From a virus (taxonomy: Duplodnaviria > Caudoviricetes), in IMG/VR virus record IMGVR_UViG_3300009082_000959: a DNA stretch of 64,000 bases, one strand, 5' to 3'. Positions 36,510 through 64,000 of this stretch are shown in pieces. The position numbers and the translations under genes were made by a program. A model generated the notes under the pieces. It was given only the letters and a program-made list of their open reading frames with translations, was not told the DNA's origin and ran no database searches. How positions within the stretch are numbered: position 1 is the first letter of the stretch; each line of letters begins with the position of its first letter.

Positions 36510-37490
36510 ATGGCACTTAATATCAATGAACTAGTGTTATTGTCTGAAACACTATCAAAAAGTGGCAAAATAAAGCAGGCAAAGACTATAGAAGGCATGA
36601 TTGATAAATTATCAGCCGAATGGGACACAATGGATCCAGAAAAACAAAAAAGTTGGGTAGAGAGGCAGGACTGGCACACAAATCCCATCGAATACATAAA
36701 TCGTCCCGAGAAAAAACCAGAGCCACCGACATCTGGTGTTTCAACAAAAAACGAAGACGAAACGAGTATTGATGAGGATAAAATTAATGAAAAGGCACTA
36801 GAAGATGCCAATAAAGAGTTTAGTAAATTTTTATCTTATCTTGATTCTAGCGGCATATCTCCTCAATCGTTTTTTGATACCGTTCATGGGTCTGGTGGAA
36901 TTATATTGCGCAACAATCCAGAAACAAACAAACCAGAGGTGGTGAAAGATTTTCCAGAAGATAATGAAATAGACTCTTCGGCCGCAATTAATAAAAATGA
37001 TGTATTATATAAACTTGCAGAAATGGCAGACAGATTAGATTCTATTGGGGCAACAAAAGAGGCAAATCTTATAGATAATTTCATATCAAAACACGCATCG
37101 GGTCCTGTAGTATTAAAGAGTGCAGACGACCAAGAAAAAAAGTATGATGCAAAATATCATCATTCGTTGCAGGTTAGAGAACCAAAAAATAAGGATAAAA
37201 AAGAAACAAAACATAGTGTCAAAAACTATGAAGGCGGGCACGGATGCAGCACACTTAGCACAAGATACTGCCCAGAACATCCTGGGGTTATGCTCGGAAG
37301 AATAGGCGAGCTTACATATCAGTGTTCTCTAGATGGCCATGTTTACAACTACGAAGCAGGCTGGGTTGATGCCGATGGGACAAATCACCCAGGAGGATCT
37401 GTTGCTGGCCAGACACCGGACTCTACCGGATATGATACGCCACACAGAGTATTTGATAGTAGAGAGAATACATTAAATAGGGGAAAATAA
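36510..37490 (+). CDS. Putative virion protein with two helical tag motifs and C-terminal Cys/His domain
   Basis: LSETLSKSG..QA..IE and LAEMADRLDSIG...EANLID; TRYCPEHPG...QCSLDG. Confidence 0.75.
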   Translation: MALNINELVLLSETLSKSGKIKQAKTIEGMIDKLSAEWDTMDPEKQKSWVERQDWHTNPIEYINRPEKKPEPPTSGVSTKNEDETSIDEDKINEKALEDANKEFSKFLSYLDSSGISPQSFFDTVHGSGGIILRNNPETNKPEVVKDFPEDNEIDSSAAINKNDVLYKLAEMADRLDSIGATKEANLIDNFISKHASGPVVLKSADDQEKKYDAKYHHSLQVREPKNKDKKETKHSVKNYEGGHGCSTLSTRYCPEHPGVMLGRIGELTYQCSLDGHVYNYEAGWVDADGTNHPGGSVAGQTPDSTGYDTPHRVFDSRENTLNRGK

Positions 37491-37493
37491 ACA

Positions 37494-38045
37494 ATGTATA
37501 GTATTGATGAACTTATTGCAATAGCAGACTCTCTTGATGCGTGTGGATTACATTCAGAAGCAGAAACTATAGATGGTATGATAGAAAAATTGGCCGCACC
37601 GACGTCTGGTGCTATTCCATCATTTGTGACAAGGCTAAAAGAGACTTTTGTTTCTGAAATTGGTGATTCTGGGGACCGCATTAGCCTTGAATACATTTTA
37701 GAGGTAATAGACAGTGTTGCACAAAATAGTGGTCCATTTACTGGATATAAGGCTGGCCCAGAAGAAGTAAATAGACTTAAAGTTATGTCACAAGAGCCGG
37801 CGAGCAAGGCACTACACTTACTTGAGCTTCAGAGATCGGTAAAGGACATTAAATCTGAGTTAGACAAAGAAAATGACCCAGAAAAAATCAAATTGTTGCA
37901 GCGTGATTTGAAGAGCGATCAAGAAGACTTAGACGAAATACTCAAAAAAGTAGAACAATGGAAGAGTGGTAAAAGAGATAATGATATTGCATCATATGAT
38001 CTATTTACAAAGATATACAATAGTCGCGGAGAAAATATAGAATAA
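37494..38045 (+). CDS. Putative virion protein with N-terminal helical tag
   Basis: LIAIADSLDACGLHSEAETIDGMIEKLAA. Confidence 0.75.
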   Translation: MYSIDELIAIADSLDACGLHSEAETIDGMIEKLAAPTSGAIPSFVTRLKETFVSEIGDSGDRISLEYILEVIDSVAQNSGPFTGYKAGPEEVNRLKVMSQEPASKALHLLELQRSVKDIKSELDKENDPEKIKLLQRDLKSDQEDLDEILKKVEQWKSGKRDNDIASYDLFTKIYNSRGENIE

Positions 38046-38782
38046 TGTCTGCATCGAAAGTACTAAAGCATCCCGATAAAGATGAAATAATAGAACTACT
38101 TGCAACCAAAGGAGAGTCTGTAAGGGAAATAGAATCAATGTTGCGAAGCAAGTATCCGTCTAGTAAACATTTGTGGATATCATCAGTAACACTTCAAAAA
38201 TTCAGAAAAGAAAACTTAAAGCTTGAGGGAAGAGTTCTTAGGGATATACAAGAAGCCGGAAGAGTTCAAAAGCAGCAATCAGAAAAACAAGAGAAGATTC
38301 GTATTTTGGAATCTACCGGCGCTTACACAAAAAAAATTAATGAAATTGCTGATTCTAAACTAGATGTCCAAAAAAGAATTTTGCAGTTGGATAGAATAAT
38401 AGAATCAAGAATGGAGTACTGGTATAATGCCATTATTAGTGGTACAGAAACTGCATCAAAAGGTGACAAGGAATTAAGACAATTTATGGACAGACAAATG
38501 AATCTTTTGTCGCAATACAAGAAATTGGTTGAGGGAATGGCAGATAGAACAATAGATCATAATGTGAATATAACGGTAATGAATGAACAAATAGGAATAA
38601 TACAGGACGTAATAAGAGAGTGTATATCAAGTTTTTCGCCCGAACAAGCAATGTTGTTTATGGAAAAGCTAAACAGAAGATTAAACGCAACAACTTATCG
38701 CCCAAAAGAACTACAACCGGCATTATCATTAGTTGAACTTAAAAAATCTGAAGAAGATATTATTGACGGTGAATATGAATAA
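38045..38782 (+). CDS. Hypothetical helical protein (N-terminal HTH-like; small-terminase candidate)
   Basis: HPDKDEIIELL...SVREIE pattern; location upstream of terL; weak assignment. Confidence 0.5.
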   Translation: MSASKVLKHPDKDEIIELLATKGESVREIESMLRSKYPSSKHLWISSVTLQKFRKENLKLEGRVLRDIQEAGRVQKQQSEKQEKIRILESTGAYTKKINEIADSKLDVQKRILQLDRIIESRMEYWYNAIISGTETASKGDKELRQFMDRQMNLLSQYKKLVEGMADRTIDHNVNITVMNEQIGIIQDVIRECISSFSPEQAMLFMEKLNRRLNATTYRPKELQPALSLVELKKSEEDIIDGEYE

Positions 38783-40238: not shown

Positions 40239-40240
40239 AA

Positions 40241-41008
40241 ATGAATATAAATGAGTTACTTGAGTCAATTGACAAAATATCAAAACTAAGTGGTTTGTCT
40301 AAGCCATTCATGGTTGGCGGCGTTCCAAGAGATCGTTTTTTGGGAAAGCTAGGAAAGCCCTCGGAAATAAAGGATGTTGATATTACAACAGGAAACAATG
40401 ATTCAAGAAAGCTTGCAGAAATATTGCATAAGAAATTTCCCAAAAGCACGTATAGGGAATACGATGACGGCCATATTTCATTAGATATATTTGGATTACA
40501 CATAGATTTCTCAAGTAATTTTGTTGCCCCTGGGGTATCCGAAGAATTGGCTAAAGCCGGAGTTACAGGTATATCACCAATGTTGCTTGAGGTTTATAGT
40601 CGAGATTTTACAATTAATACTCTGCTAGAGGATTTAGCTTTCTCAGGAATCTATGATTTAACAAAAGAGGGCATAAAGGACTTAAAAACCGGTGTAGTAA
40701 GGTGCCCAATAGATCCAGAAATAACAATAGGTGTTGATCCACGAAGAATATTGCGAGCAATTAAATTTTCAATAAAATATGGGTTTACAATTGAAGAAAA
40801 TCTTAAAAATGCTATTATGAATAATAGAAAAAAACTTCAATCTCTTCCTAGAAAATTTGTACAGGACAAAATAAGTGAAATTGTTACGCTCGATAGTGAT
40901 TTGGGAATCGATGAATTAATAAAATATAAAATTTTACCACTAGTTCCTTTATCAAAAACAGTTTCAGATATTTTAATACAAAAAAGAAAAATGGTTCACG
41001 CATTATAA
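40241..41008 (+). CDS. Class II nucleotidyltransferase (CCA/poly(A) polymerase family), divergent
   Basis: VGGVPRD, DVD catalytic pair, RDFTIN, DPRRILRAIKF; templating motif reads LEVYSRD instead of EDxxRRD. Confidence 0.88.
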   Translation: MNINELLESIDKISKLSGLSKPFMVGGVPRDRFLGKLGKPSEIKDVDITTGNNDSRKLAEILHKKFPKSTYREYDDGHISLDIFGLHIDFSSNFVAPGVSEELAKAGVTGISPMLLEVYSRDFTINTLLEDLAFSGIYDLTKEGIKDLKTGVVRCPIDPEITIGVDPRRILRAIKFSIKYGFTIEENLKNAIMNNRKKLQSLPRKFVQDKISEIVTLDSDLGIDELIKYKILPLVPLSKTVSDILIQKRKMVHAL

Positions 41009-41268
41009 TGGAAAAAGAATCTCAAGTCACGGCATTGCAGAATTTTCAAACACTAGAGCAAACACTGCTAAAGATCGACTCCTTGATGAAAGATTTTCAG
41101 ATAAATAGAGATATTATAAAAAACCTAATGTCACAACTCAAAGTTCAGGTTCAACAATTGGAAAAAATAAGAAACCAAGAACCGGGCATTGGAGCAACAC
41201 AAAGTGGCGCTGACGACGGAAAACACCACTCATTTTGGAGAAAAAATTTAGATTATGGCGTCAGATAA
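41008..41268 (+). CDS. Hypothetical coiled-coil protein
   Basis: TAATG coupling. Confidence 0.65.
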   Translation: MEKESQVTALQNFQTLEQTLLKIDSLMKDFQINRDIIKNLMSQLKVQVQQLEKIRNQEPGIGATQSGADDGKHHSFWRKNLDYGVR

Positions 41269-41938
41269 TATTACAAAAAAATGCATGATACGTGGAAACG
41301 GAGCATCTGCTTGTCCGTTTGGCCTACCCGCTATAGAGGCTTGTAAGTGTGCAGGAAATTGTGTTGATAGAATGGCTCCGGTCGACCAAGCAAATGAGCA
41401 GGAGACAGAGAGACTGGCACGTGCAAACAGAATAGTCTATGCATATTGTAAAGAAAAATGTAATTGCAAATATGCAGACAAAATAATTGAATCCAAGGAA
41501 AAGGTTGATTGTGATTTTGGTGATACTGGCGCTGGCCAACGAACACCATCATTTAGGGGAAGTCCGCTATACCCGCAAACATTTCATGGCATAGGTTTGG
41601 ATGGATTATATGGTTATCCACTGGGATATTACTCAGATAATAATGAAAGCAGAAATATGTTTTTTGGGTTATTTAGTTTAATCGGAACACACACAATACA
41701 AGAATTGGTTAAAGTTGGAGACCAATACGATAAGTCAGGAGAGCTAGAGAAAGCAAATATAGTTGATGATTTGTTAGTAAAATTGAAAGGAATAAGAGAT
41801 AATAATAGGGAATCGTTTGATACAATTGAATCATATTTAGAAGAATTTAGAAAAAAATACGATAGAGCCAGGTCTGACACCGGATTGTTGTGGGACTTGT
41901 CGCAAAAATGGTACGGCGCCCGACAATCTGCAAAATAA
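41255..41938 (+). CDS. Cys-rich hypothetical protein with helical tag
   Basis: Nine Cys in the N-terminal half; ELVKVGDQYDKSGELEKANIVD. Confidence 0.75.
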   Translation: MASDNITKKCMIRGNGASACPFGLPAIEACKCAGNCVDRMAPVDQANEQETERLARANRIVYAYCKEKCNCKYADKIIESKEKVDCDFGDTGAGQRTPSFRGSPLYPQTFHGIGLDGLYGYPLGYYSDNNESRNMFFGLFSLIGTHTIQELVKVGDQYDKSGELEKANIVDDLLVKLKGIRDNNRESFDTIESYLEEFRKKYDRARSDTGLLWDLSQKWYGARQSAK

Positions 41939-41952
41939 TGGAGGATTAGACA

Positions 41953-43999: not shown

Positions 44000-44010
44000 T
44001 AGGAAACACT

Positions 44011-44625: not shown

Positions 44626-44627
44626 TT

Positions 44628-46502
44628 ATGTCAGCAAACAAGTTATTTACAACGGCAGAACAATGGTTTGAAGACCTAAAAAAAGAAGTCTTAAAGATAG
44701 ACCCAGTGTCGTTTGCTGAAAACTATCTTGTCGTAGACGGAAAACCACTAAAACTTGGCGGCGGGACCGGCTGGAAATACCTTACTGATATTTACAGGTA
44801 CATGGCAACGAAAGCCATGGAAGAAGATGGGAAACCCGTAGTATGTGTTAAGGGTCGTCAGGTAGGCGCAACAACTGCCGCCACTGCACTTGAACTTTTT
44901 TTTTGCACCAGCGGGCTATACGGAACATCTCCAAATAAACCACCAATAAGACTTCTTCATTGTTTTCCTGCACTAGCTCTTGTGCAAAAATTCGCAAAAG
45001 ATAAATTAAGTACAATGATGAGAACATCAAAGGATAATTATATCCTTAATCATTCTCTTGGCTACGACGCTGAATCAAAGAAAAAGAGAATTGATGTTCC
45101 AGAAGATACTCTCACAGAAAAACAATTCACCAATGAAAATAGGCTTTGGGTTGATTCCAACGCCAATGATGCTCAAAGACTTCATGGTATGTCTTTGGAT
45201 GGTATTTTCTATGATGAGGTTCAGAGAATGAACCAAGATGACATAGGAAATAGCAAAAGAACCCTAACATCTGCTCGATATGGGCCCCGCGGACAAGGAA
45301 TCCAGATGTATTTTGGCACTCCTTTGCAGCGCGGTTCAAATTTTCACAAAATGTGGGAATCCTCTGACAAAAGATATTATCATCTTGGGTGTGAAAATTG
45401 TGGTCATTATTTTATGCTATATTCTCCTGGGAATGATGATTGGGAGAAAATATGGCTATATGCTAATGTTGTGGCTTGTCCAAAGTGTCACCACGAACAG
45501 GATAAAGTTGATGCAATAGAGCGCGGTAAATGGATTCCAATGCAACCAGTTCTGCCAGACGGAAAGGAACCACAGTATGTTGGATTTCATTTTAATCAAT
45601 TGCTGATACCAAATTTTCATAAAGAAACGGTCATTAAAGAAAAACCAGGAATACATCCAACAAACTCAGAGCGCATTTGGCAAAACGAAATATTAGGAGA
45701 GTTTTACAGTGGTGAAGATTTGCCAATGTCGGAAGAAGAAATATATAAGTATTGTAGAGATATAGACAGAAGCATTTCATTTGGAGGCCCAGGCACATCC
45801 ATAAAAAGAGTGCAAAGCAACAAGATTTATTCTTCGAGTAAAATTCCCACTTTTTTGGGCATCGACTGGGGTGGTAAAATAGACGATCCAAATTCCAAGA
45901 TAGGAAAATCGTTTTCTTGTATGGCAATTATATCTGTTGATAAGGATGCGGTAGTGAGAATAGAGAATGCATTTAAACTAAAAAAGAATGATTTGCAACA
46001 CAAAAAAGATGTAGTAAGGGAAATGTTCAGAAGATTTGATATCAATTGCGCTGTCGCAGACTTAGGTCATGGTAATGATATAGTTCCAGAGCTTCAGGGG
46101 GAATTTGGAAACAGGTTAATAGGAAGCATAAGCAGTGGTAGTCTAACTAATCCAACGAAATATGACCCAGAGGAACTAAGACTGATTATAAATCATCACG
46201 TATTACTGGAAGATTTATTCGCGCATATGAGAAAGGGTAAAGTATTATTTCCATGGAAAAGTTATGAGCAAATTCAGTGGCTTATAGAGCACTGCTGTTC
46301 AATGGAAAAAGAAATACACACAGTTCAGGGTCGAGTCATATCAAGATTTGTAAAGGGTACCGGACCCAACGACGGTCTTATGGCTCTCCTATATGCCTAT
46401 TTGGCGTATAAATTTTATCTAACGCAAGGGTTTACGATAAAGGCCCACCAACTAAATGCAAAAAGTGCCGGACCAATATTGGCTTATTTGCCAAGTTTTT
46501 AA
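44628..46502 (+). CDS. terL: Terminase large subunit
   Basis: KGRQVGATT Walker A variant, IFYDE Walker B, FGTP, CENC...CPKC, nuclease GIDWG. Confidence 0.9.
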   Translation: MSANKLFTTAEQWFEDLKKEVLKIDPVSFAENYLVVDGKPLKLGGGTGWKYLTDIYRYMATKAMEEDGKPVVCVKGRQVGATTAATALELFFCTSGLYGTSPNKPPIRLLHCFPALALVQKFAKDKLSTMMRTSKDNYILNHSLGYDAESKKKRIDVPEDTLTEKQFTNENRLWVDSNANDAQRLHGMSLDGIFYDEVQRMNQDDIGNSKRTLTSARYGPRGQGIQMYFGTPLQRGSNFHKMWESSDKRYYHLGCENCGHYFMLYSPGNDDWEKIWLYANVVACPKCHHEQDKVDAIERGKWIPMQPVLPDGKEPQYVGFHFNQLLIPNFHKETVIKEKPGIHPTNSERIWQNEILGEFYSGEDLPMSEEEIYKYCRDIDRSISFGGPGTSIKRVQSNKIYSSSKIPTFLGIDWGGKIDDPNSKIGKSFSCMAIISVDKDAVVRIENAFKLKKNDLQHKKDVVREMFRRFDINCAVADLGHGNDIVPELQGEFGNRLIGSISSGSLTNPTKYDPEELRLIINHHVLLEDLFAHMRKGKVLFPWKSYEQIQWLIEHCCSMEKEIHTVQGRVISRFVKGTGPNDGLMALLYAYLAYKFYLTQGFTIKAHQLNAKSAGPILAYLPSF

Positions 46503-46514
46503 TAAAGAGGTTTT

Positions 46515-47180: not shown

Positions 47181-47192
47181 GAAACAAAATAA

Positions 47193-51422: not shown

Positions 51423-51431
51423 GGAAGCACA

Positions 51432-52459: not shown

Positions 52460-52466
52460 GTAAAAT

Positions 52467-55400: not shown

Positions 55401-58400
55401 CTTATAGAATACACAGTACAAAAGTTGGTAGAAGAGAATCCCAAAATGTTCTTTTTTCGTGGTTTTCACAAAACATATCCACATCTTACAGAACAAGCCG
55501 CCAAAAACCTAGTAGAAGAGGATTCTGGATATTTCTTTAGTTATGGACTACAGGAAACATTTCCACATCTTACAGAACAAGCCGCCAAAAGCCTAGCAGA
55601 AAAGGATCCTGATACTTTGTTTTTTAGGAAACTAGATAAAATTTATCCACAATTAGGTGAGTTGGCAGCCAAAAACCTAGCAGAAAATAAACCTGCCGAT
55701 TTCTTTTACTTCAAGCTGCATAAAACCTACCCACAAATAGGAGAACAGGTGGCCAAATACCTGGCAGAAAATAATATTAGTACATTCTTTCATTACAATT
55801 TACAAGAAATCTACCCAAAACAGGGCGAGCTACTATCAAAAAATCTAGCAGAAAAGGATCCTGATACTTTCTTTCGCAGGGAATTACACAAAATTTATCC
55901 GCAACTAGGTGAATTGGCAGCAAAGAGTACGGCAGAAGAGGATCCAAAAAAGTTCTTTCTTTTTGGATTACACAAAACCTATACACACTTTGCAGAATTG
56001 GCAGCAAAAGGCATTGCGGAAATCATTCCTGGTTATTTCTTTGATACTGAATTACATAAAATATACCCACAGTTATCAGAACAGGCTGCCGAAAATTTGG
56101 CGAAAGAAAATATTGTGTCCTTCTTTTATCGCAAAATACACGAAACCTATCCACATATCGCAGAACAAGCTGCCAAAAACCTAGCAGAAAATGATGAGGG
56201 AGAATTCTTTAAATTAAATTTGCAAAAAACTTATCCACAGTTTGCGGAACAACCAATAACAAATAGATTAAAAGCACAGAAACAATTTGATTACGAAAAT
56301 CCCGATCACAGAAATAGACCTCTTAAAGCAAAACAATTAGCCAGTAAAATGTATAATCAGGGATATAAAACCTACATACACACTAATGATTTAGATGATT
56401 TGGATGGAATCGGCAGTATTCCTGGGGAAATTTGTGTAAGTTCTTGGGACTTATCCAGAAAACTGTTTTCCTCAAGCCCAATGACTTACGCTGCAATTTT
56501 TGAGGGAAGACCTTCACATTTCTTTAATCAAGATGCTTGGTCTGACGTAGGTCAGGATGGCCTACGATTTTTGACAAGTATTGGGAGAGATAGGGACTTT
56601 TACGAAATGGATGAAAACCATGACGAAGCTTGGTTTAATCCACTAGCACCAGGAAACAAATTAGTTGGCTTTGCTTTAGTGGGAATACCGAAAGATCAAG
56701 AAACATATCAAGATGGAAAGAAAAAACTACAAAAACTGGCGGAGAAAAACGGAGTAGCGTATTTGGAGTTTGGAGAAAATCCTTGGGACTTGAAAAAAAT
56801 CAGAGAAAAACCTTTAATGAAAGAATATGAAAAACCAAACCCAATGATCAGCAAATATAAAAATCTACCAGAAATGAGAGACTACGCTAAACTGAAACTA
56901 TCAAAACGTGCCGAAGAGGAAACAACAATACAACTTACCGACAAAGAAAAACAAATCTTTGATGTTTTGCTTGAAACAATAAAGCATTTTAATTTAAAAT
57001 CCACCATTAGAGTTGCCGGCGGTTGGGCTAGAGATAAAATACTTGGGAAAAATAGTAAAGACATAGATATAGCAATTGATAATATGTCTGGTAAGCAGTT
57101 TGCCGAAAAAGTATTGCTATTTGCTCGCACGAAAAACATTCCAGTAAAATCAGTTGGAGTAATAGAGGCCAGACCAGAACAATCAAAACATCTCGAAACA
57201 GCTGTGGTTAATTTACTAGGCGAGAGTATAGACTTTGTAAATTTGCGCGCAGAAAAATATGATCCAGAAACCAGAATTCCAACGGCAGTTCCTGGAACTG
57301 CTCTTGAGGACTCATATCGTAGAGACTTGACCATTAATAGTTTATTTTACAATATTAATACTGGGAAAATAGAAGATTTGACCGGCAAAGGTATAGATGA
57401 TTTAAAAAATAAAATAATAAGAACGCCAGTTCCGCCGAAGGAAATTTGGTCACAGGTTGGAATTACAGACGAATCACAAGCAATTACTCCAAAGAAAACC
57501 TTTATGGATGACCCACTTCGTGTTCTTCGTGCAATTAGGTTTGCCTCAAGATACGGATTTTCTTTGGCACCAGAATTAATGGAAGCAGCAAAGGACCCCG
57601 AAGTTCAGGAATCATTTAAAAACAAAATATCTAGAGAGCGCATCGAGGCAGAATTAAGAAAAATGATAACTGGTCCAAATCCTGTTTGGGCTCTAAATTT
57701 AATAAACGAGTTGGGTTTTAGGTCTGAAGTATTAAAACTCCCAGAACAAACAAACTGGAAAACCGGTGATGAAGATATTTGGGGAAACATAATTCAAACA
57801 CTGGATAATTTACAAAGTATAATAAAAGAAAGAAATTTGGGTGAAGCAGACAAGTTCGTTATTAATTTTGCGGCATTCTTGCATGATGTTGGCCTACTTG
57901 ATCCAAAAAACCAAGACGCGAAAAAATTGGAGAAATCCATTGGACGATCTGAATCCAGCGTCGTAGTCGCAGAACATGTATTACGAAATTTGCCAGGCGT
58001 AAGGGTTGATGAAATAGAAAGAGTAAAGAAACTAATAGATGCCACCAAACTAATAGAAAACCAAAAACACGATTTGTCTGCTATTACACGAAAACAATTG
58101 GGTAATTTTGTTAGAGCAATAGGAGACGATTGGGAAAATGCAGTTGATATTTTGGCTGCACGAAACAAGGCCAACGAAGGATTTAGTCCAGAGTATTACA
58201 GTGGAATTAAAAAACAGGTAAAGGATTTTGGTCTTGAAAAAGCCCACACAATGAAACCGCTTTTGACTGGCGAAGAATTAATGAAATTGTTTGAAAGAAA
58301 GGGCGGAAAGTGGATGGGAGACCTAAATAGAGAACTAATTCAATGGCAGTTAGAAAATCCAAACGCAACGAAGGATGATGCAATTGTCGCAGCAAAAGAC

Positions 58401-60275
58401 ATTTATGGTAAGTTTGGGTTAGATAAAAAATCATCTCTTGGCCGTTTGTCTAAATTGGCTAGTGCTGGTTTTTCAGATAAAGATGTAATTGATTTATACA
58501 AATTTATGTATTTGCGAAACCAATTAGAAAGAAGAGGAGACCCGGAAAGCGATAGTTATATTGAGTATTTAGATGAAACTATGAATGATAAACTAAAGCA
58601 TATTTTTTATGTCCTGTCGACGGTATTTGAAAAATGGCTAAAAAGACATCGAGCTATGTTTGGTGATTTAAATAATCTAGAGAATTTTGAAACCGCCGTT
58701 GCATGGTATGTTGGTAATTTAATGGATCATGTGCATGAAAAAGACATCAACAAGGCGGAGCAATACTTACCACAGTCTCGTGATGAGGTTTTAAAGTGGA
58801 AAAATACATTTAATACAATACACGAAATATACGAAAATCTTGCAAAAGGTCCATCCAGAGACATGAATAGTAATTTCTCTATAATAAGTCGCGCAATTGG
58901 GGCATCACATATCCATGGTGATATGTTGTCGTATATTAAAGAAACAGTCGATGATCCAAACCAACAAATTACGCCAGAATTAATGTCTCAATTGACTTCT
59001 GGAAAACACGAAGATTTTAAAGAGTGGAACAAAGAACTGCGAAGAATTGGTTGTAAAAAATTACACTTATCGAAGAGAGCGTCTGTTTCTGAAGAAGAAG
59101 CAAAAGACCTAGCAGAAAAAGATCCAGATAGTTTCTTTATAGACAAACTACACAAAATATACCCCAAACTTGGTGGGTTAGCTGCAAAGAATTTAGCAGA
59201 AAAAGATCCTAATAAATTCTTTTCTAGATCACTACATATAACCTACCCACATCTTGAGGAATTAGCAGCCAAAAACCTATCAGAAAATGATCATTATAGT
59301 TTTTTTTATAATGGATTACACGAAATTTATCCGCAACTAGGTGAGCAAGCTGCCAAAAACCTAGCAGAAAATGATTTTCATGAGTTCCTTGCTTTTGGGT
59401 TACACAAAATCTATCCCCAAACCGCAGTTCAAGCAGCAAAAAATCTGTCAGAAAAAGATCCAGAAAATTTCTTTTATTTCGAACTACAGCAAATCTATCC
59501 ACAATTCGGGGCCCTGGCGGCCAAAAAGATAGCAGAAGATGATGCAGAGAAATTCTTTAAATTAAATTTGCAAAAAACTTACCCACAGTTTTCAGAACAA
59601 CTCATAAAAAACAGACTAAAAGCACAGAAACAATTTGACGAGGAAAATCCAAATCGCAAAAATAGGCCACTTAAAGCAAAGCAATTGGCTAATGAAATGT
59701 ATAATCATGGATATAAAACCTACATACACACTAATCACCTAGAAGATTTAGACGGAATTGGTAGTATTCCTGGGGAAATTTGTGTAAGTTCTTGGGATTT
59801 GTCTCGTAAGCTTTTTTCTGCAAACCCAATGACTTATGCTGCTATTTTTGAGGGGAAGCCTTCACACTTTTTTAATCAAGATGTTTATTCTAATATAGGC
59901 AAAGATGGCTTGCGGGTTTTGACAGACACCATGCGTGATGACACCTCTATTTACGAAATGGATGAAAACCATGACGAAGCTTGGTTTAATCCACTTACTC
60001 CGGGAAACAAACTGGTTGGTTTTGCTTTAGTGGGAATACCAAAAGACGAAAAAGAATACCAAGAAGCCAAGAAACAGCTACAAAAACTAGCGGAGAAAAA
60101 TGGAGTATCTTTCCTAGAATTTGGTGAAAGTCCCTGGGACTTGAAAAAAATCAGAGAAAAACCTTTGATGAAAGAATATGAAAAACCAAACCCAATGATC
60201 AGCAAATATAAAAATCTACCAGAAATGAGAGACTACGCTAAACTGAAACTATCAAAACGAACCAACATTGGTTGA
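52467..60275 (+). CDS. 2602-aa multi-enzyme polyprotein-like ORF (TopoIB, M15 peptidase, 2H phosphoesterase, repeat+ART-like x2, CCA-adding enzyme, unknown modules)
   Basis: Family motifs in each segment; LSKRA-type pentapeptides at aa 9, 250, 444, 625, 741, 917, 1478, 1994, 2201, 2595. Confidence 0.88.
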   Translation: MLFNNFKILSKRAKVVSDKPAYKDKQESDSGNTIYHYDEKHLSKRWQHKRDKVKNLEKNVKKIREQYEKDLSSDDPRTRAIAAVVGVIDDTAARVGNPDSIKDHDTYGITTLKLKHISFSGGKAKLKFPGKDNVNQDLTVDNKKVIKVLKELTKDKKKDDFLFEVDGKRIWDRAINRYLSPFKISAKDLRGFHANRLMKELLKKKDFDEALEETASIVGHEKATLKNQYLLPELVEKYEGKKKDASIMRLSKRAELTPEDLAWVNSIKGLTADVPSAPATQTGGVKINSLILAAWQTLLPFLPKGSVITSGERTADDQKRILEHYWQKATGQKIPDKLKANDSVWFQVSKSLKEDYGYIVGPPKTNDPYSHLNGRALDVSGANLNQIANIAASVSNNPKLPVKFRKPVIEKQNNCVHLGIENAEYNPAAIKEVLSSGLGVTASISVRANKFLDEMGFGLETEQGDLFEKSPIFRHYDGYQTYKIHDISETEASKLAKSEPDEFFYRGLHKEYANLVPGALRSMIQSNAKFFFVFDYHKDEKYSDLLILAAELLSQQDPRAFFYFGLHKKFPELGRGAVVQLIDTNPDSFFDLGLEKEYSDLEGSAGAARNIKDPNKIEIEKDSNLNKAAEEDDEEKKKLEEYLKLREKYKRLFKDRDYKEFPPEDRKKEFWKHQFNPKEIGSFPSFWEYPKEEDPDREEKEEDLKKRRKQYWQHQLSPTRWLGYGAIPFWKYPKSSVMPVLSKRAEVNDVAGVFAVLPKEIAKQFKSLGDHDNSDPHITVIFCGKVKKKDRKLLEETVRGVIENWKPFKAELDSKVTYFPATKNSDGCKIAKMSVKSKELHRLHKELKEAIESAGIEIDDTFPDYKPHVTLEYLEKGATKYEDEVPEGSWEIDCVEIWGIGKNRKIKFDKHEKKACLSKRASFTEEEAKELAEKGSDTFFYYHLQETYPHLAEQAARNLAKVSAFDFFYYRLHETYPHLIEYTVQKLVEENPKMFFFRGFHKTYPHLTEQAAKNLVEEDSGYFFSYGLQETFPHLTEQAAKSLAEKDPDTLFFRKLDKIYPQLGELAAKNLAENKPADFFYFKLHKTYPQIGEQVAKYLAENNISTFFHYNLQEIYPKQGELLSKNLAEKDPDTFFRRELHKIYPQLGELAAKSTAEEDPKKFFLFGLHKTYTHFAELAAKGIAEIIPGYFFDTELHKIYPQLSEQAAENLAKENIVSFFYRKIHETYPHIAEQAAKNLAENDEGEFFKLNLQKTYPQFAEQPITNRLKAQKQFDYENPDHRNRPLKAKQLASKMYNQGYKTYIHTNDLDDLDGIGSIPGEICVSSWDLSRKLFSSSPMTYAAIFEGRPSHFFNQDAWSDVGQDGLRFLTSIGRDRDFYEMDENHDEAWFNPLAPGNKLVGFALVGIPKDQETYQDGKKKLQKLAEKNGVAYLEFGENPWDLKKIREKPLMKEYEKPNPMISKYKNLPEMRDYAKLKLSKRAEEETTIQLTDKEKQIFDVLLETIKHFNLKSTIRVAGGWARDKILGKNSKDIDIAIDNMSGKQFAEKVLLFARTKNIPVKSVGVIEARPEQSKHLETAVVNLLGESIDFVNLRAEKYDPETRIPTAVPGTALEDSYRRDLTINSLFYNINTGKIEDLTGKGIDDLKNKIIRTPVPPKEIWSQVGITDESQAITPKKTFMDDPLRVLRAIRFASRYGFSLAPELMEAAKDPEVQESFKNKISRERIEAELRKMITGPNPVWALNLINELGFRSEVLKLPEQTNWKTGDEDIWGNIIQTLDNLQSIIKERNLGEADKFVINFAAFLHDVGLLDPKNQDAKKLEKSIGRSESSVVVAEHVLRNLPGVRVDEIERVKKLIDATKLIENQKHDLSAITRKQLGNFVRAIGDDWENAVDILAARNKANEGFSPEYYSGIKKQVKDFGLEKAHTMKPLLTGEELMKLFERKGGKWMGDLNRELIQWQLENPNATKDDAIVAAKDIYGKFGLDKKSSLGRLSKLASAGFSDKDVIDLYKFMYLRNQLERRGDPESDSYIEYLDETMNDKLKHIFYVLSTVFEKWLKRHRAMFGDLNNLENFETAVAWYVGNLMDHVHEKDINKAEQYLPQSRDEVLKWKNTFNTIHEIYENLAKGPSRDMNSNFSIISRAIGASHIHGDMLSYIKETVDDPNQQITPELMSQLTSGKHEDFKEWNKELRRIGCKKLHLSKRASVSEEEAKDLAEKDPDSFFIDKLHKIYPKLGGLAAKNLAEKDPNKFFSRSLHITYPHLEELAAKNLSENDHYSFFYNGLHEIYPQLGEQAAKNLAENDFHEFLAFGLHKIYPQTAVQAAKNLSEKDPENFFYFELQQIYPQFGALAAKKIAEDDAEKFFKLNLQKTYPQFSEQLIKNRLKAQKQFDEENPNRKNRPLKAKQLANEMYNHGYKTYIHTNHLEDLDGIGSIPGEICVSSWDLSRKLFSANPMTYAAIFEGKPSHFFNQDVYSNIGKDGLRVLTDTMRDDTSIYEMDENHDEAWFNPLTPGNKLVGFALVGIPKDEKEYQEAKKQLQKLAEKNGVSFLEFGESPWDLKKIREKPLMKEYEKPNPMISKYKNLPEMRDYAKLKLSKRTNIG
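55230..56252 (+). repeat. About 12 tandem 28-aa (84-nt) repeats
   Basis: Consensus YPQLxEQAAKNLAExDPxxFFxxxLHKT. Confidence 0.92.
56203..56908 (+). repeat. About 700-nt direct duplication; second copy at 59551-60259
   Basis: Near-identical DNA; the last ~120 nt differ at about one position and run through the LSKR codons. Confidence 0.92.
59082..59600 (+). repeat. About 6 tandem 28-aa repeats of the same family
   Basis: Same consensus as 55230-56252. Confidence 0.92.
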
Positions 60276-60319
60276 AATATACTAATAAAATCACATTTAT
60301 CAGTAGAAGGAGAGAGTTT

Positions 60320-61000
60320 ATGAAAAAAATCGCATCTGGCGCCGAGATTATGAGCACCATACTATCTTTTACTGAAGCACTCGAAGAAATGTATGAGCAT
60401 ATGCATTGGAGGGCTTCTGGACCAAATTACTACGGTGATCATCTTTTGTATCAGAGACTGTATGAAGACATAGAGGGCGAAATAGATGGAATAGCTGAAA
60501 AGGCAGTTGGTGTTTTTGGGCCAGATTCGATAGGCCCAAACAAAAATATTTCAGAAACAGCCAAAATAACTGAAAAACTTATTTCTGATACTGATACAGC
60601 AGAAAAATTTCCAGAGATAGCAATATCCGCAGAGGAAAAGTTTGTTGAATTGGTTTCTCGCGCGCTTAAAGAAATGGATAAAAGCAACGAATTAACCAAT
60701 GGCATAGATAATATGCTACAGGGTGTGGTAGATAGCCACGAAGGTCACTTGTATTTATTAAAGCAAAGGGCTAATAAAAAGGAATCAAGCACAGTCATAA
60801 GACTGTTTAAGTTGGCATACTATTTGGATAGAAAGTCCTTATACAACGAAGCACGAGAAATAGAAGAAGTTATGCTACAATTGGCAAAACGAGTGGGCAT
60901 AAATCAAGAAGAAATGGTATCACTGGCTGATGAATTGGATCAAATTGGGGATACTGTCGTAGCGGATAAAATAGATAATATGATTAAATCAAATAAATAA
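60320..61000 (+). CDS. Dps/ferritin-like protein with two C-terminal helical tags
   Basis: HW...H...Y...D..AE (HMHWRASGPNYYGDHLLYQRLYEDIEGEIDGIAEK); LLKQRA, then two tag copies; AAGGAG before ATG 60320. Confidence 0.78.
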   Translation: MKKIASGAEIMSTILSFTEALEEMYEHMHWRASGPNYYGDHLLYQRLYEDIEGEIDGIAEKAVGVFGPDSIGPNKNISETAKITEKLISDTDTAEKFPEIAISAEEKFVELVSRALKEMDKSNELTNGIDNMLQGVVDSHEGHLYLLKQRANKKESSTVIRLFKLAYYLDRKSLYNEAREIEEVMLQLAKRVGINQEEMVSLADELDQIGDTVVADKIDNMIKSNK

Positions 61001-61001
61001 T

Positions 61002-61376
61002 ATGCGTCCTCTATCAATTCGGCACAAAATAGCAACAATTGAAGCCTCCAAGTCTGGTGTCGGCGTAAGTGCTGGTGCGAGAAAATATATGAGAACCGCT
61101 ATGCCCGAATATAAGAGCGTTGGAAATGCTGAACTAAACGAGCTAATCGTGTTTGAGTTTTCAAAGTGCGCGCCGTGGAGCAGATTCAAACTAAATAAAA
61201 CACTAGATGGAATAGCCGAAATAAGAAAAAGTTCGAGGTTTGTATTCGTCGCTAGAATAAGAGATAGAGGGACATCGCAGTCTGGGTATGATATTATAAC
61301 GATACAACCAAACTCTAAAGAGGTTTCAGAAAAAATTAGAAAACTACGCCTACAGCCCGGTTGGGGCTTTGAATAA
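61002..61376 (+). CDS. Hypothetical protein
   Basis: Starts MRPLSIRHKIA; operonic. Confidence 0.68.
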   Translation: MRPLSIRHKIATIEASKSGVGVSAGARKYMRTAMPEYKSVGNAELNELIVFEFSKCAPWSRFKLNKTLDGIAEIRKSSRFVFVARIRDRGTSQSGYDIITIQPNSKEVSEKIRKLRLQPGWGFE

Positions 61377-61387
61377 CGGAGAACAAT

Positions 61388-61789
61388 ATGGAAATCCTTA
61401 AAAAACTAGCTACTTTGGCAAATGAACTTGATAAGATGGGGCTTACTGCTGAAGCAACTGAAATAGACCTTATAATTGAAAAGTTGGGCCAAAACGGAAT
61501 TGATAATGTTTTTGAGCAAATAAAAAATGAGATTACTCCGTTTATTCCAGCAGGAACGCTTAAATGGAATCCCAAAAAGCCAGTATTATCCCTTCGTCCA
61601 GTATTAGATGAGTATTATCCTGGATTATTTAGAAAGGGAATGACTGCGGACGGATTACTGGAGGCCATAAGAAATTCCAACAAAACAAAGACAAAACCAA
61701 CCACAGCTCCAATTGGTCAAACGAGAGACCCTGGACCAATTAAAGTCGATTTTCAAATGCCATCGCCTGGACCACAACCTAAACTATAA
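61388..61789 (+). CDS. Putative virion protein with N-terminal helical tag
   Basis: LKKLATLANELDKMGLTAEATEID; GGAG RBS. Confidence 0.78.
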   Translation: MEILKKLATLANELDKMGLTAEATEIDLIIEKLGQNGIDNVFEQIKNEITPFIPAGTLKWNPKKPVLSLRPVLDEYYPGLFRKGMTADGLLEAIRNSNKTKTKPTTAPIGQTRDPGPIKVDFQMPSPGPQPKL

Positions 61790-62685
61790 TGGACAAGCTT
61801 GCTATTATTAAAAAACTTCCAAACGGAAAATATCGTCTTTATAGCAAGAAGAAAGATAAAAATGGCAAAAGACGAAATCTTGGGACATTTGATTCCATTT
61901 CAGCCGCGAAAGATAGGGAAAAAGATATAAATTATTTTAAACATAATGCTGATGATGGTGAGACAGATTCAGAGTTGGATAAACTTATTTCTGACCTCTC
62001 CACTATTGCTGCATATTTAGAGGAGGCAGGAATGTCTGGAGCAAACGAAATAAGCAAAGCTATGGACGCAATAGATGGAAGTTTTGCAGATGATGGTATT
62101 CCAGAGTGGGAAATGGAACTTGCTAATATGGATATTTCTCCCAAAGCGCGTAAAAAAGAAAAACTATATCGAAAACACGAAATATTAACTGACCCAGAAG
62201 AAATGGATGAAATGACAGGAGAGAACCCTGATTTATACGACTTAATGTCTTACAATAAAATAAATAAAGAGTTGGATGAAATTTACAGAACAGAAAGCGC
62301 TGGTGGCTACGCAAAAGCACAAAGATGGATAGAGGAAAATGTAGATCAAATGAAACTTTCTGACAATATGAAACAATCTTTATTAGATAGAGTTTCATCA
62401 CCAATGTGGGAAATTTTTGATGCTAACGACGGCGATTATGCTGACGATCCGATAATGGCTAGTGTTCCTGATGTCCAAATGAACTACCCTGGTTCTGGAA
62501 ATTATGAAATGACTGGTGAGGTTGCTGGTGGAACACAAGCACTTTTCTCAATTCCAGAAGCAACCGTAATGGCGCATCTTGTTGAAAAATTAACAAAACT
62601 AGCAAATCATCTTGATGGTATTGGATACTTTGATTGTGCCAGTGAAATAGATGAAATAACCAAATCATTACGAAAAACAAAATAA
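61789..62685 (+). CDS. Putative virion protein: basic N-terminal domain, acidic core, helical tags
   Basis: GKYRLYSKK...RNLGTF; C-terminal LTKLANHLDGIGYFDCASEID. Confidence 0.78.
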   Translation: MDKLAIIKKLPNGKYRLYSKKKDKNGKRRNLGTFDSISAAKDREKDINYFKHNADDGETDSELDKLISDLSTIAAYLEEAGMSGANEISKAMDAIDGSFADDGIPEWEMELANMDISPKARKKEKLYRKHEILTDPEEMDEMTGENPDLYDLMSYNKINKELDEIYRTESAGGYAKAQRWIEENVDQMKLSDNMKQSLLDRVSSPMWEIFDANDGDYADDPIMASVPDVQMNYPGSGNYEMTGEVAGGTQALFSIPEATVMAHLVEKLTKLANHLDGIGYFDCASEIDEITKSLRKTK

Positions 62686-62699
62686 TAGGAGAGAGAACC

Positions 62700-63515
62700 A
62701 TGAAATTTTTGCAGAGACTTATTAAATTAGCAAATGATTTGGACAGCCGCGGTCTTTTTGGCGAGGCTGACGAACTTGATGCAATTATACGAAATGCAGC
62801 GGACGGCGTCTTTGGCCCAGGAACAGGCGGATTGGCTGGATTACCAACACCATCTATGGAGGGAGCCTATCAAAGATACAAATCACGAACCAGTCCAGAC
62901 AATATAAAAACCTGGCAATCACAATATAATGCCGCCCTTCAATTGCTACAAAAACGCTTGGGATTTTTGCCAAGCGGAATGACACCGCTTAAAGTAGATG
63001 GAATAAGGGGCAAAAACACTATTATGGCCATGAATTATGTAAAGCAAATTCTTGGCGGAAAAGGAACACTAAAAAACTTTGTAGAAACAGTTGTCGCTAA
63101 CGAAATGAACAATAAACAATTAGGTAGTCCAGCAGTTGCAACACGAGAACAAATTACCGATGCTCTAAAAAAATATGTTGAACAGAACATGAGCATTACT
63201 GATGCTCCACTCGACGCAGAAGTTCAAAATAATATAACTGGTGTCGCCAATAAATTATTCGAACAAGTTGCACAAGGACAACTAACCCAAAAACAACTAC
63301 TCTCTGCCATAGTTGATTCCGCAAGGTCAATAGGTTCGCAGTTTGAGGAAAGAATGTATGCACAAATGGGTGAAAACCCTCTTAAAGATTTCGAGATCTC
63401 CGCACCAACACAACCAAAACCATCAATGATTAGAGAGCCACGCGGAGGACAGATAGGAACCTATATGCCAATCCCAGACAGCGTAATGCCAACCACAAAT
63501 TACCCAATAAAGTAA
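62700..63515 (+). CDS. Tagged protein with a peptidoglycan-binding-like domain
   Basis: N-terminal LIKLANDLDSRGLFGEADELD; IKTWQ...LKVDGIRGKNT resembles PG_binding_1. Confidence 0.72.
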   Translation: MKFLQRLIKLANDLDSRGLFGEADELDAIIRNAADGVFGPGTGGLAGLPTPSMEGAYQRYKSRTSPDNIKTWQSQYNAALQLLQKRLGFLPSGMTPLKVDGIRGKNTIMAMNYVKQILGGKGTLKNFVETVVANEMNNKQLGSPAVATREQITDALKKYVEQNMSITDAPLDAEVQNNITGVANKLFEQVAQGQLTQKQLLSAIVDSARSIGSQFEERMYAQMGENPLKDFEISAPTQPKPSMIREPRGGQIGTYMPIPDSVMPTTNYPIK

Positions 63516-63527
63516 AAGAGGACTAAA

Positions 63528-64000
63528 ATGATCACCAAACTTGTAAAACTAGCAAATCACCTAGACTCAATTGGAGAACACGATTTAGCAGACCAAATTG
63601 ATGCTATAGTAAAAAGCGCCGCATTGTTGAGCGCAAGAAATAGTTTAATTGATGCGCTTAAAAACGACGACACCAAAAAGGCCAATGACGCAATTATGGA
63701 ATTGGTGTCTCAAATTCCGCGCGGCTCTAATGCCGCTGATGAATTGGGTATTTCCAGCAAAGAATTCAAAGAACTTGCTAATGCCATACACACAGGTGAT
63801 CTTGAATCAGCGCGCAAAGTATTTAATGTTGGCAAAGCGGTAAGCAAGGACCCAAATAAAATAAATCCCTTTACAGGACAACCATGGCCATCCGGAGAAG
63901 TAAAAGAGGAACCAAAGCAGTCTGATACGGGTAAAAAGAAATATGAATTTACGGGGAAAGAAACATCCACAAGAGGGTTTGGTGGAGTAAAAGTAAAAGA
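63528..64000 (+). CDS. Tagged putative virion protein (runs off the window; absent from the ORF track)
   Basis: GAGGA RBS, ATG 63528; MITKLVKLANHLDSIGEHDLADQIDAIVKSAA; frame open to the end. Confidence 0.8.
   Translation, partial: MITKLVKLANHLDSIGEHDLADQIDAIVKSAALLSARNSLIDALKNDDTKKANDAIMELVSQIPRGSNAADELGISSKEFKELANAIHTGDLESARKVFNVGKAVSKDPNKINPFTGQPWPSGEVKEEPKQSDTGKKKYEFTGKETSTRGFGGVKVK

What the first reader, a model, noticed from the sequence alone, without database searches (positions are those of the whole stretch)
36510..64000. Portable ~30-aa helical tag shared by at least eight unrelated late proteins
Seen: consensus L-x-K-L-A-x-x-L-D-x-x-G-x4-A-x-x-I-D at ~36516 and ~37005 (ORF 36510), 37494, ~41696, ~60794 and ~60905 (Dps-like), 61388, ~62575, 62700 and 63528, with a looser copy near 39695. 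It sits at N-termini, C-termini or internally, and the rest of each protein is unrelated. It is often closed by a K/R-x-A site (IEKLAA, ISKHAS, IIRNAA, IVKSAA, LEKFAA). Known: T4 internal proteins use a short capsid-targeting sequence removed by the head protease. Inference: a capsid-addressing or core-assembly helical hairpin that recruits cargo and is then clipped off.
Basis: partly seen in the sequence, partly recalled or inferred. Interest (0 to 1): 0.82.

Follow-up and report, generated by a model that had tools for sequence, protein, structure and literature searches.

The report
Shared helical-hairpin module on phage head proteins
A conserved, previously unnamed 32-residue helix-turn-helix module sits on many otherwise unrelated proteins encoded only around the head-assembly genes of a clade of uncultivated huge phages, so it is probably a docking handle for building or loading the capsid interior, though no experiment shows this yet.

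Summary
A profile finds 11 copies of the motif in 8 + strand ORFs between 36.5 and 64 kb. They score 20-49 bits against at most 6.3 bits in shuffles, and nothing else in the window matches. With the copies masked, the eight proteins share no similarity. The "looser copy" near 39695 is not supported, and one extra weak copy lies at 61984.

The module is a TPR-like helical hairpin with core L5, A9, L12, D13, G16, A21, I24, D25 and a mean net charge of -3. It has no Pfam or PHROG family and no match in cultured phages. It matches 3033 metagenomic protein clusters. In six related phage records it occurs almost only within about 20 kb of the terminase, portal and protease-scaffold genes. The same cargo domains carry it on either side, so it is truly portable.

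My best reading is a docking module for head-interior proteins (0.55). Clipping by the head protease is weakly supported. The tail h-x-K-x-A is enriched, but it lacks the strict [LI]SKRA consensus that repeats in the neighbouring polyprotein.

Earlier first-stage notes flagged the same tag in overlapping windows of this same genome, not on other DNA.

The parts
36510..37490 (+). ORF 36510 (326 aa): N-terminal tag, disordered spacer, internal tag, then a conserved C-terminal small beta/Zn-ribbon-like domain. This is the most widespread tagged family.
   Evidence: The family supplies 60 of the 150 best database hits, with the C-terminal domain 55-65% identical. The AF2 model shows two separate hairpins (H5-17/H21-40 and H162-179/H182-196) joined by low-pLDDT linkers, pTM 0.23.
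36519..36617 (+). Tag copy 1 (N-terminal, residues 4-36 of ORF 36510)
   Evidence: 30.3 bits with the 51-copy profile. Leave-one-out E 0.04. Canonical in orthologs.
37002..37100 (+). Tag copy 2 (internal, ORF 36510), ending in ISKHAS, the tag tail closest to the [LI]SKRA motif
   Evidence: 43.1 bits. Leave-one-out E 2e-5. Site listed. K194 and F191 are nearly invariant in the family.
37494..38045 (+). ORF 37494 (183 aa) with tag copy 3 at 37500-37598 (N-terminal)
   Evidence: 46.2 bits. Leave-one-out E 1.7e-8. No Pfam or PHROG family.
41255..41938 (+). ORF 41255 (227 aa): Cys-rich N-terminal domain with tag copy 4 at 41693-41791 near the C-terminus
   Evidence: 36.5 bits but leave-one-out E 2.7. 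Orthologs carry canonical copies. In P0141 and P0102 the same Cys-rich domain lies C-terminal to two N-terminal tags.
60317..61000 (+). Dps/ferritin-like protein (227 aa from the ATG at 60317; a TTG at 60272 is also possible) with a tandem double tag at its C-terminus: copy 5 at 60791-60889 and copy 6 at 60902-60997
   Evidence: Pfam DUF5856 E 4e-7 and Ferritin E 1.2e-4. phrog_3636 E 1e-12. Tags score 35.3 and 40.1 bits. The double tag folds as four helices, pLDDT 84.6, pTM 0.66.
61388..61789 (+). ORF 61388 (133 aa) with tag copy 7 at 61394-61492 (N-terminal)
   Evidence: 40.5 bits. Leave-one-out E 5.7e-9.
61789..62685 (+). ORF 61789 (298 aa): basic N-terminal domain, weak internal copy 8 at 61981-62079, and C-terminal copy 9 at 62578-62676
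   Evidence: 19.7 and 43.5 bits. Copy 9 has leave-one-out E 5.9e-7; copy 8 is not recovered. Same architecture in L018:10490-11245.
62700..63515 (+). ORF 62700 (271 aa) with tag copy 10 at 62703-62801 (N-terminal), followed by a Gly/Pro linker
   Evidence: 37.5 bits. Leave-one-out E 9e-8. Only a sub-threshold PG_binding_3 hit, E 0.06.
63528..64000 (+). ORF 63528 (runs past the window end; 296 aa in the full record) with tag copy 11 at 63528-63623 (N-terminal). The C-terminal half has a GNAxV-type repeat.
   Evidence: 49.2 bits. Leave-one-out E 2.7e-10. Full length read from L024:10829-11719.
44628..46502 (+). Context: large terminase subunit
   Evidence: Pfam GpA_ATPase E 1e-16. tblastn to annotated terminases.
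47193..51422 (+). Context: portal protein interrupted by intein/LAGLIDADG insertions
   Evidence: phrog_16240 portal E 9e-43. LAGLIDADG_3 and Intein_splicing.
52467..60275 (+). Context: 2602-aa polyprotein (Topo IB, 2H phosphoesterase and CCA/poly(A)-polymerase-type domains, and two blocks of 28-aa helical repeats). Its parts are separated by LSKRA at aa 9, 250, 741, 917, 1478 and 2201, plus LSKRT at 2596. It carries no tag.
   Evidence: [LI]SKRA is also present in the G001 ortholog.

Best explanation
The motif is a small independently folding domain: a 32-residue acidic, TPR-like helix-turn-helix hairpin. Helix 1 reads L5-x-x-L8-A9-[DN]10-x-L12-D13, the turn is x-x-G16, and helix 2 reads E20-A21-[DN]22-x-I24-D25-x-x-I28.

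In a clade of uncultivated huge phages it is fused through flexible linkers to many unrelated proteins of the head-morphogenesis gene block. It occurs at either end or in the middle, once to three times per protein.

I infer that it is a docking handle. It would bring accessory or cargo proteins (Dps/ferritin-like, AP2-type and other DNA-binding domains, a conserved Zn-ribbon-like domain, many unknowns) and a scaffold-like acidic protein into the assembling prohead interior. It would do so by binding one shared partner.

Two partners are plausible. One is another copy of the tag, with hairpins stacking like neighbouring repeats of an alpha-solenoid, as in the tandem double-tag unit. The other is a basic surface on the scaffold, core or inner shell.

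Shown: the existence, conservation, fold class, portability and head-block restriction of the tag. Inferred: docking, capsid interior location, and any later removal by the head protease.
For: Reality and conservation:
- 11 copies in 8 ORFs, far above shuffles.
- 44 further copies in IMG/VR relatives.
- 3033 clusters at E<=1e-3 and 144 at E<=1e-10 among 1.84 billion representatives.
- D13, G16 and A21 are 96-97% conserved over 350 copies, while the window copies are only 36-62% identical at the DNA level. The copies are therefore old and under selection.

Fold:
- AF2 gives helix-turn-helix for every copy.
- The tandem double tag is a compact four-helix unit (pLDDT 84.6, pTM 0.66).
- Its nearest structures are TPR and other alpha-solenoid repeat pairs, at weak scores only. 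There is also a weak hhalign match to TPR.

Portability:
- With tags masked, 79 of the top 150 hits outside the window's families fall into 54 unrelated groups.
- The Cys-rich domain of ORF 41255 has the tag C-terminal in the window but N-terminal in P0141 and P0102.
- Ferritin-like and AP2 cargos recur with tags at different distances.
- Proteins of 62-74 aa consist of two tags only.

Location:
- No copies in window 1-36 kb.
- In G001 (162 kb) the copies lie only at 43 kb and 67-85 kb, flanking a protein with a head-maturation-protease domain (phrog_18299, E 1e-12).
- In the complete 442-kb G006, 8 of 10 hits lie in 379-418 kb, together with TerL (409-410 kb) and protease-scaffold (384-386 kb).
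- The pattern is the same in G007, G009 and G010 and in L026.
- The window's own record continues with tags at window-equivalent 64411, 65599 (scaffold-like, acidic C-terminus), 72938 and 79960, around the 1224-aa protease-scaffold gene.
Against: There is no virion proteome, no cultured relative and no identified partner.

The tag-tag complex prediction gave no verdict.

AF2 did not fix the two tags of ORF 36510 against each other (pTM 0.23).

The neighbouring polyprotein, which looks like a processed head-internal protein, carries no tag, so the tag cannot be the only route into the head.

The tag is acidic, unlike the basic coat-binding hairpin of the P22 scaffolding protein.

The major capsid protein was not identified, so 'head block' rests on terminase, portal and protease only.

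A few weak hits lie outside the block in G006, G007 and G009.
Confidence: 0.55

Rival explanations
1. One reading: the hairpin is a capsid-targeting propeptide that the head maturation protease removes at the K/R-x-A site closing it, as with the T4 CTS.
For: The tail h28-x-K30-x-A32 is enriched in N-terminal and internal copies (37-42% match h-x-[KR]-x-[AGS]) and almost absent from C-terminal copies (2 of 45). It is therefore a junction feature, not part of the fold.

It has the same spacing as the [LI]-S-K-R-A motif. That motif separates the enzyme modules of the adjacent polyprotein and sits 5-9 residues from the N-termini of other head-block proteins.

The ORF 36510 family keeps I-x-K-H-A after its internal tag.

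A head-protease homolog is encoded in the middle of the tag cluster.
Against: The strict motif has invariant Ser and Arg, which tag tails mostly lack. Only 1 of 11 window tags (ISKHAS) comes close.

C-terminal tags show no conserved site upstream.

Ala32 after a Lys-rich helix end may simply be a helix cap.

The cleavage specificity of this protease is unknown, and no proteomic data exist.
Confidence: 0.2
2. The hairpin is a general protein-protein association module acting outside the particle. It might recruit an assembly chaperone, tether head-assembly factors to a membrane or assembly site, or hold regulatory complexes together. On this reading the tagged proteins never end up inside the capsid.
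For: Solitary TPR-like hairpins are generic interaction elements. No evidence places any tagged protein in virions. Many proteins carry a tag at both ends, which suits cross-linking of any kind.
Against: The tag is tightly restricted to the terminase-portal-protease neighbourhood across relatives down to 47% TerL identity. It is present on a scaffold-like protein. The cargos are DNA-binding or DNA-protecting domains that make sense next to packaged DNA.
Confidence: 0.2
3. There is no common function: a duplicated helical segment that has drifted, or a compositional look-alike of amphipathic helices.
For: Short helical motifs recur by chance. Four window copies are weak on window evidence alone.
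Against: Scores are 20-49 bits against at most 6.3 in shuffles. D13, G16 and A21 are near-invariant over 350 copies. Orthologs keep their copies. Thousands of clusters carry it.
Confidence: 0.03

Closest known systems
T4 capsid targeting sequence (CTS) of internal proteins IPI-IPIII (Mullaney and Black 1996, as cited in PMC10052503), and the propeptides of phiKZ/SPN3US head proteins (PMC10052503)
   Same: A short shared element on otherwise unrelated proteins encoded near portal, protease and scaffold. A head protease gene lies nearby, and so do candidate cleavage motifs.
   Different: The CTS is about 10 residues, strictly N-terminal and unfolded, and is cut after Glu. This element is a folded 32-residue hairpin found at either end or internally, often in two or three copies. 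It shares no sequence similarity with the CTS, and its cleavage is unproven.
C-terminal coat-binding helix-turn-helix of the P22 scaffolding protein (residues 271-300 seen on the procapsid inner surface, PMC9965877), used to load foreign cargo into P22 particles (PMC9962691)
   Same: A helix-turn-helix hairpin of about 30 residues that by itself addresses a fused protein to the capsid interior. A scaffold-like protein here carries the tag too.
   Different: The P22 hairpin is described as basic (own knowledge, not checked in the paper read) and occurs once, on the scaffold only. This one is acidic (mean -3), is spread over a dozen or more proteins per genome, and has no detectable sequence relation to it.
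Tetratricopeptide (TPR) and related alpha-solenoid repeats
   Same: The pattern of small and large residues around a Gly turn. A eukaryotic TPR protein appears among the profile hits (P0002). The best Foldseek hits to the double tag are TPR proteins.
   Different: All similarity scores are sub-threshold: Foldseek E >= 0.7, VIA Z <= 6.9, hhalign probability 48%, and Pfam TPR_8 in 3 of 37 members below cut-off. The copies are solitary or paired, not arrays of three or more.
Encapsulin cargo-loading peptides
   Same: A terminal tag directs cargo, notably ferritin-like proteins, into a shell. Encapsulin shells have the same fold as the HK97 phage capsid (own knowledge). A Dps/ferritin-like protein here ends in two tags.
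   Different: Encapsulin tags are short, unstructured C-terminal peptides. Here the tag is a folded hairpin, and packaging of the Dps-like protein is not shown.

Membership tests
T4-type capsid targeting sequence / cleavable head propeptide | Located at the extreme N-terminus of internal head proteins | tested here: not met
   Only 113 of 350 copies start within 10 residues of the N-terminus. 45 are C-terminal and 192 are internal.
T4-type capsid targeting sequence / cleavable head propeptide | Removed by the prohead protease at a consensus site directly after the signal | tested here: inconclusive
   h-x-K-x-A is enriched after N-terminal and internal copies. It differs from the strict [LI]SKRA motif of the polyprotein. 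No proteomic data exist.
T4-type capsid targeting sequence / cleavable head propeptide | Sufficient to carry a foreign protein into the capsid; tagged proteins present in particles | not testable with these tools
   No cultured relative was found.
P22-type scaffolding coat-binding hairpin | Helix-turn-helix of about 30 residues | tested here: met
   AF2 secondary structure of the double tag and of ORF 36510.
P22-type scaffolding coat-binding hairpin | Basic surface that pairs with an acidic coat segment; single copy at the scaffold C-terminus | tested here: not met
   Mean net charge is -3 over positions 1-28. There are many carrier proteins and positions.
TPR repeat (Pfam TPR clan) | Significant match to a TPR profile or structure | tested here: not met
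   No Pfam hit reaches threshold. TPR_8 appears in 3 of 37 and TPR_10 in 2 of 37 members, below cut-off. Foldseek best E is 0.73. hhalign probability is 48%.
TPR repeat (Pfam TPR clan) | Tandem array of three or more repeats forming a superhelix | tested here: not met
   Copies are single, or paired 5-10 residues apart, or separated by long linkers.
Encapsulin cargo-loading peptide | Short unstructured C-terminal peptide on cargo such as ferritin-like proteins | tested here: not met
   The cargo type matches (Dps/ferritin-like), but the tag is a folded hairpin and is position-independent.

The most novel reading that the evidence does not exclude
Huge phages of this clade use a modular, sequence-readable cargo code. 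Any protein fused to this hairpin is loaded into the capsid interior, including a Dps/ferritin-like protein, which would parallel encapsulin cargo loading. The capsid-internal and co-injected proteome of thousands of uncultivated phages could then be read directly from sequence, and the tag could be reused to load foreign proteins.
Probability: 0.3. Interest if true: 0.8.

Novelty: new variant of a known kind. Interest (0 to 1): 0.62.

Why it matters
How large phages fill their heads with dozens of internal and ejected proteins is poorly understood, and known addressing signals are few (the T4 CTS and the P22 scaffold hairpin).

This is an unnamed domain family present in thousands of metagenomic protein clusters. 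It marks a defined set of head-block proteins and is demonstrably shuffled between cargos.

If it is a loading handle, three things follow. It gives a sequence rule for predicting capsid-internal proteins in uncultivated huge phages. It suggests that DNA-protecting (Dps-like) and DNA-binding proteins travel with the genome. It offers a small natural tag for packaging foreign proteins.

Even if it only mediates assembly-factor interactions, it defines a new family that deserves a database entry.

Tried and rejected
- Complex prediction of the tag of ORF 62700 with the tag of ORF 63528 scored 0.19 against a mark of 0.34. This is no verdict and is not used as evidence either way.
- The 'looser copy' near 39695 and a tag-like stretch near 39876 do not reach significance with either profile.
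- Pfam and PHROGs give no family for the tag or for most carriers.
- There is no match in 50,697 cultured or GenBank phage records, whether by double tag, DNA, or the conserved C-terminal domain of ORF 36510.
- No relative of ORF 36510 was found in the GTDB species genomes.
- Foldseek against PDB and VIA-align wide on the double-tag model return only generic TPR/HEAT-like pairs.
- The whole genome is not held and the NCBI record could not be searched by handle. I read 19 kb downstream by two exact-protein look-ups instead.
- The search for related loci with the double-tag alignment failed for lack of a conserved 7-10 column stretch.
- I tried to find the major capsid protein in G001. The 443-aa gene after the protease is all-helical, with no useful neighbours. 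The 518-aa gene has no PDB or Pfam match.
- EF-hand and DNA-binding HTH readings were considered and dropped, because the spacing of Asp and Gly and the acidic charge do not fit.
- TerL-42% relatives G002 and G003 give no profile hit. However, their ORF 36510 ortholog carries a diverged tag with a one-residue longer loop, so the profile under-counts distant copies.
Full report
**What the window is.** The window is AT-rich (GC 30-39%) and almost wholly coded on the + strand.
- The first 36 kb hold replication and recombination genes. These include DNA polymerase III alpha at 19333, RecA at 29144, a primase fragment at 31552, a TnpB-like gene at 27526, and homing endonucleases.
- From 36.5 kb the content changes to head morphogenesis. 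The large terminase is at 44628-46502, an intein-bearing portal at 47193-51422, and a 2602-aa polyprotein at 52467-60275.
- An exact-protein look-up places the window in NCBI assembly GCA_902730985.1, on contig CACVHS010000001.1 of 223,498 bp. This is an uncultivated huge phage.
- No cultured phage is close. The best terminase identity is about 25%.

- Translating the + strand ORFs shows the motif by eye at every listed place.
- A profile from the 11 copies finds them at E 5e-9 to 2.5e-14. Nothing else in six frames of 64 kb scores better than E 8.5.
- Leaving out each protein in turn, seven copies are recovered at E 2e-5 to 3e-10. Four copies (36519, 41696, 60794, 61984) are weak on window evidence alone.
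- Those four are nonetheless canonical in orthologs. With a 51-copy profile all eleven score 19.7-49.2 bits, against a maximum of 6.3 bits in 20 shuffles.
- With the tags masked, the eight proteins show no similarity to one another; the best E is 0.75.
A weak copy at 61984 was missed.

**Anatomy.** Over 350 copies from the window, relatives and database hits, the profile is as follows:
- L5 (86%), L8, A9 (89%), D/N10, L12 (89%), D13 (97%), G16 (97%), E20 (65%), A21 (96%), D/N22, I/L/V24, D25 (89%), I/L/V28.
- The tail is softer: K29/K30, then A32.

Both helices carry the same A-[DN]-x-h-D pattern. The core is acidic, with mean net charge -3. The window copies are only 36-62% identical at the DNA level, so they are old and kept by selection rather than recent duplications.

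AF2 models every copy as helix-turn-helix.
- The tandem double tag at the end of the Dps-like protein forms a compact four-helix unit, with pLDDT 84.6 and pTM 0.66.
- In ORF 36510 the two tags are confident hairpins separated by low-confidence linkers, with no fixed mutual position; pTM is 0.23.
- Structure searches return only weak matches to TPR, HEAT and other alpha-solenoid repeat pairs: Foldseek E >= 0.7 and VIA Z <= 6.9.
- One eukaryotic TPR protein appears among the sequence hits, and hhalign gives 48% probability against its repeats.

So the tag is TPR-like in pattern, but I cannot show it is a TPR family member. Each helix has a broader hydrophobic stripe than a lone hairpin can bury (positions 2, 5, 6, 8, 9, 12 and 17, 21, 24, 27, 28, 31). 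That argues for a partner.

**How widespread and how portable.**
- The profile matches 3033 clusters at E <= 1e-3 and 144 at E <= 1e-10, among 1.84 billion representatives.
- The ten looked up are all metagenomic, and the only name any carries is 'hypothetical protein'.
- There is no Pfam or PHROG family, no hit in GenBank phages and none in GTDB genomes for the main carrier family.
- Of the 150 best hits, 60 belong to the ORF 36510 family and 8 are Dps-like. After masking tags, 79 others fall into 54 unrelated groups.
- Some proteins of 62-74 aa are nothing but two tags.

The same cargo appears with tags on different sides. The Cys-rich domain of ORF 41255 precedes its tag in the window but follows two N-terminal tags in P0141 and P0102. 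Ferritin-like and AP2 domains recur with tags at varying distances. Many proteins carry one tag at each end. Between the window and its 76%-TerL relative G001, the set and order of tagged genes differ. This is real domain shuffling.

**Where the copies lie.** They are not.
- In the window, there are no copies in 1-36 kb.
- In G001 (162 kb), copies lie only at 43 kb (the ORF 36510 ortholog) and at 67-85 kb. That second stretch follows the polyprotein and surrounds a 1265-aa protein with a head-maturation-protease domain (phrog_18299, E 1e-12).
- In the complete 442-kb G006, 8 of 10 hits lie in 379-418 kb. TerL (409-410 kb) and protease-scaffold (384-386 kb) are in the same stretch.
- G007, G009 and G010 show the same pattern, with three weak outliers in all.
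- A more distant contig, L026, has portal, protease-scaffold and then three or four tagged genes.
- The window's own record continues with tags at window-equivalent 64411, 65599, 72938 and 79960, and with degenerate copies at 74863 and 75310. These surround the 1224-aa protease-scaffold gene at 67725.
- The 205-aa protein at 65599 (382 aa in G001) has an N-terminal tag, a coiled-coil-like middle and a very acidic tail, so it looks like a scaffolding protein.
- Tail-like genes further downstream in G001 have no tag.

**The cleavage idea.** The adjacent polyprotein has LSKRA at six domain junctions and LSKRT near its end. The G001 ortholog has [LI]SKRA at four junctions.

The same motif sits 5-9 residues from the N-termini of other head-block proteins and inside others. 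In the window, all eight matches to [LI]SK[RKH]A lie in + strand head-block ORFs. By my rough composition-based estimate, about one would be expected by chance in all six frames. This is very probably the site of the head protease.

The tag tail has the same spacing, h28-x-K30-x-A32. Ala32 is frequent in N-terminal and internal copies (44-49%) but not in C-terminal ones (11%). So it belongs to the junction and not to the fold.

But tag tails mostly lack the invariant Ser and Arg. Only ISKHAS at 37083 comes close, although the ORF 36510 family does keep I-x-K-H-A. C-terminal tags have no evident site upstream. I therefore rate clipping as possible but unsupported.

**Mechanism proposed.**
- Shown: a conserved, folded, portable hairpin restricted to head-block proteins.
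- Inferred: it docks these proteins into the prohead interior through one shared partner. That partner is either other tags, stacking as in the double-tag unit and making a cross-linked core with multi-tag proteins as linkers, or a basic surface of the scaffold, core or shell.

The nearest working analogies are the P22 scaffolding hairpin that binds the inner procapsid surface (PMC9965877) and can carry foreign cargo (PMC9962691), and the T4 CTS with the giant-phage propeptides (PMC10052503).

A complex prediction for two tags gave no verdict.

**Comparison and novelty.** The tag is not a member of the CTS, P22-hairpin, TPR or encapsulin-tag families by the tests listed under membership. It works most like a P22-type hairpin turned into a portable, multi-copy, acidic module. 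I class it as a new variant of a known kind.

Earlier first-stage notes on overlapping windows of the same genome flagged the same tag and the LSKRA sites. I verified the parts I use here.

Noticed in passing
window 52467-60275: A 2602-aa polyprotein joins Topo IB, a 2H phosphoesterase, a CCA/poly(A)-polymerase-type nucleotidyltransferase and two duplicated C-terminal modules. They are separated by LSKRA at aa 9, 250, 741, 917, 1478 and 2201, plus LSKRT at 2596. The G001 ortholog keeps [LI]SKRA. It looks like a protease-processed set of RNA/DNA-repair enzymes encoded beside the portal.
   Followed up: partly
window 55215-56300 and 59067-59600 (aa 917-1270 and 2201-2380 of the polyprotein): Two blocks of about 28-aa helical repeats (FFYxxLHKxYPxLxExAAKNLAExDP), each starting right after an LSKRAS site. 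TRF sees an 84-bp period. They could be alpha-solenoid pieces released into the head, and so a conceivable partner for the tag.
   Followed up: no
window 47193-51422: The portal gene is 1409 aa because of intein/LAGLIDADG insertions. PHROG hits to unrelated families (thymidylate synthase, terminase, PhoH) within it probably reflect shared inteins.
   Followed up: no
window 37098-37487 (C-terminal 130 aa of ORF 36510): A highly conserved domain (YDSKYHHSLQ.REPK ... CP.H.G ... YQC.LDG.VYN ... GGSVAAQTPDS) is 55-65% identical across about 60 clusters. It is modelled as a small beta domain with pLDDT 80-89, and has no Pfam, PHROG or cultured-phage match. It is probably a core head-block protein of the clade.
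   Followed up: partly
window 46515-47180 and 51432-52187; also record positions equivalent to 66220, 67064 and 74139: Several paralogous HNH endonuclease genes with YY(E/D)NNK-type repeat N-termini are inserted between the head genes. TRF reports 45- and 90-bp periods at 51486-51794.
   Followed up: no
window 40241-41008: A stand-alone 255-aa nucleotidyltransferase of the PolyA_pol/CCA-adding head-domain type (E 2.6e-11). It is additional to the one inside the polyprotein.
   Followed up: no
window 42902-43999: A protein with four DUF4379 treble-clef zinc-finger repeats, plus a CapR-homology hit and a nuclease-like tail, lies between the tagged genes and the terminase.
   Followed up: no
window 27526-29121 and 33779-34258: A TnpB/Cas12f-like gene (OrfB_IS605 and TNB domains) and a gene matching a PHROG annotated as translation initiation factor (phrog_9787, E 9e-24) lie in the replication block.
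   Followed up: no
L024:10829-11719 (window 63528 to 418 bases past the window end): The full ORF 63528 is 296 aa. After the tag and a linker it carries a GNAxV/GNAxI repeat region that looks like a beta-helix or bactofilin-type polymer-forming domain.
   Followed up: no
L022:1291-2010 (G002, TerL 42% identical): The ortholog of ORF 36510 carries a diverged tag with a one-residue longer loop (LDQLNTMTTALDMSGDVDLKKAASVIDELLLTVAAPP). The profile misses it, so the family extends further than the counts suggest.
   Followed up: partly
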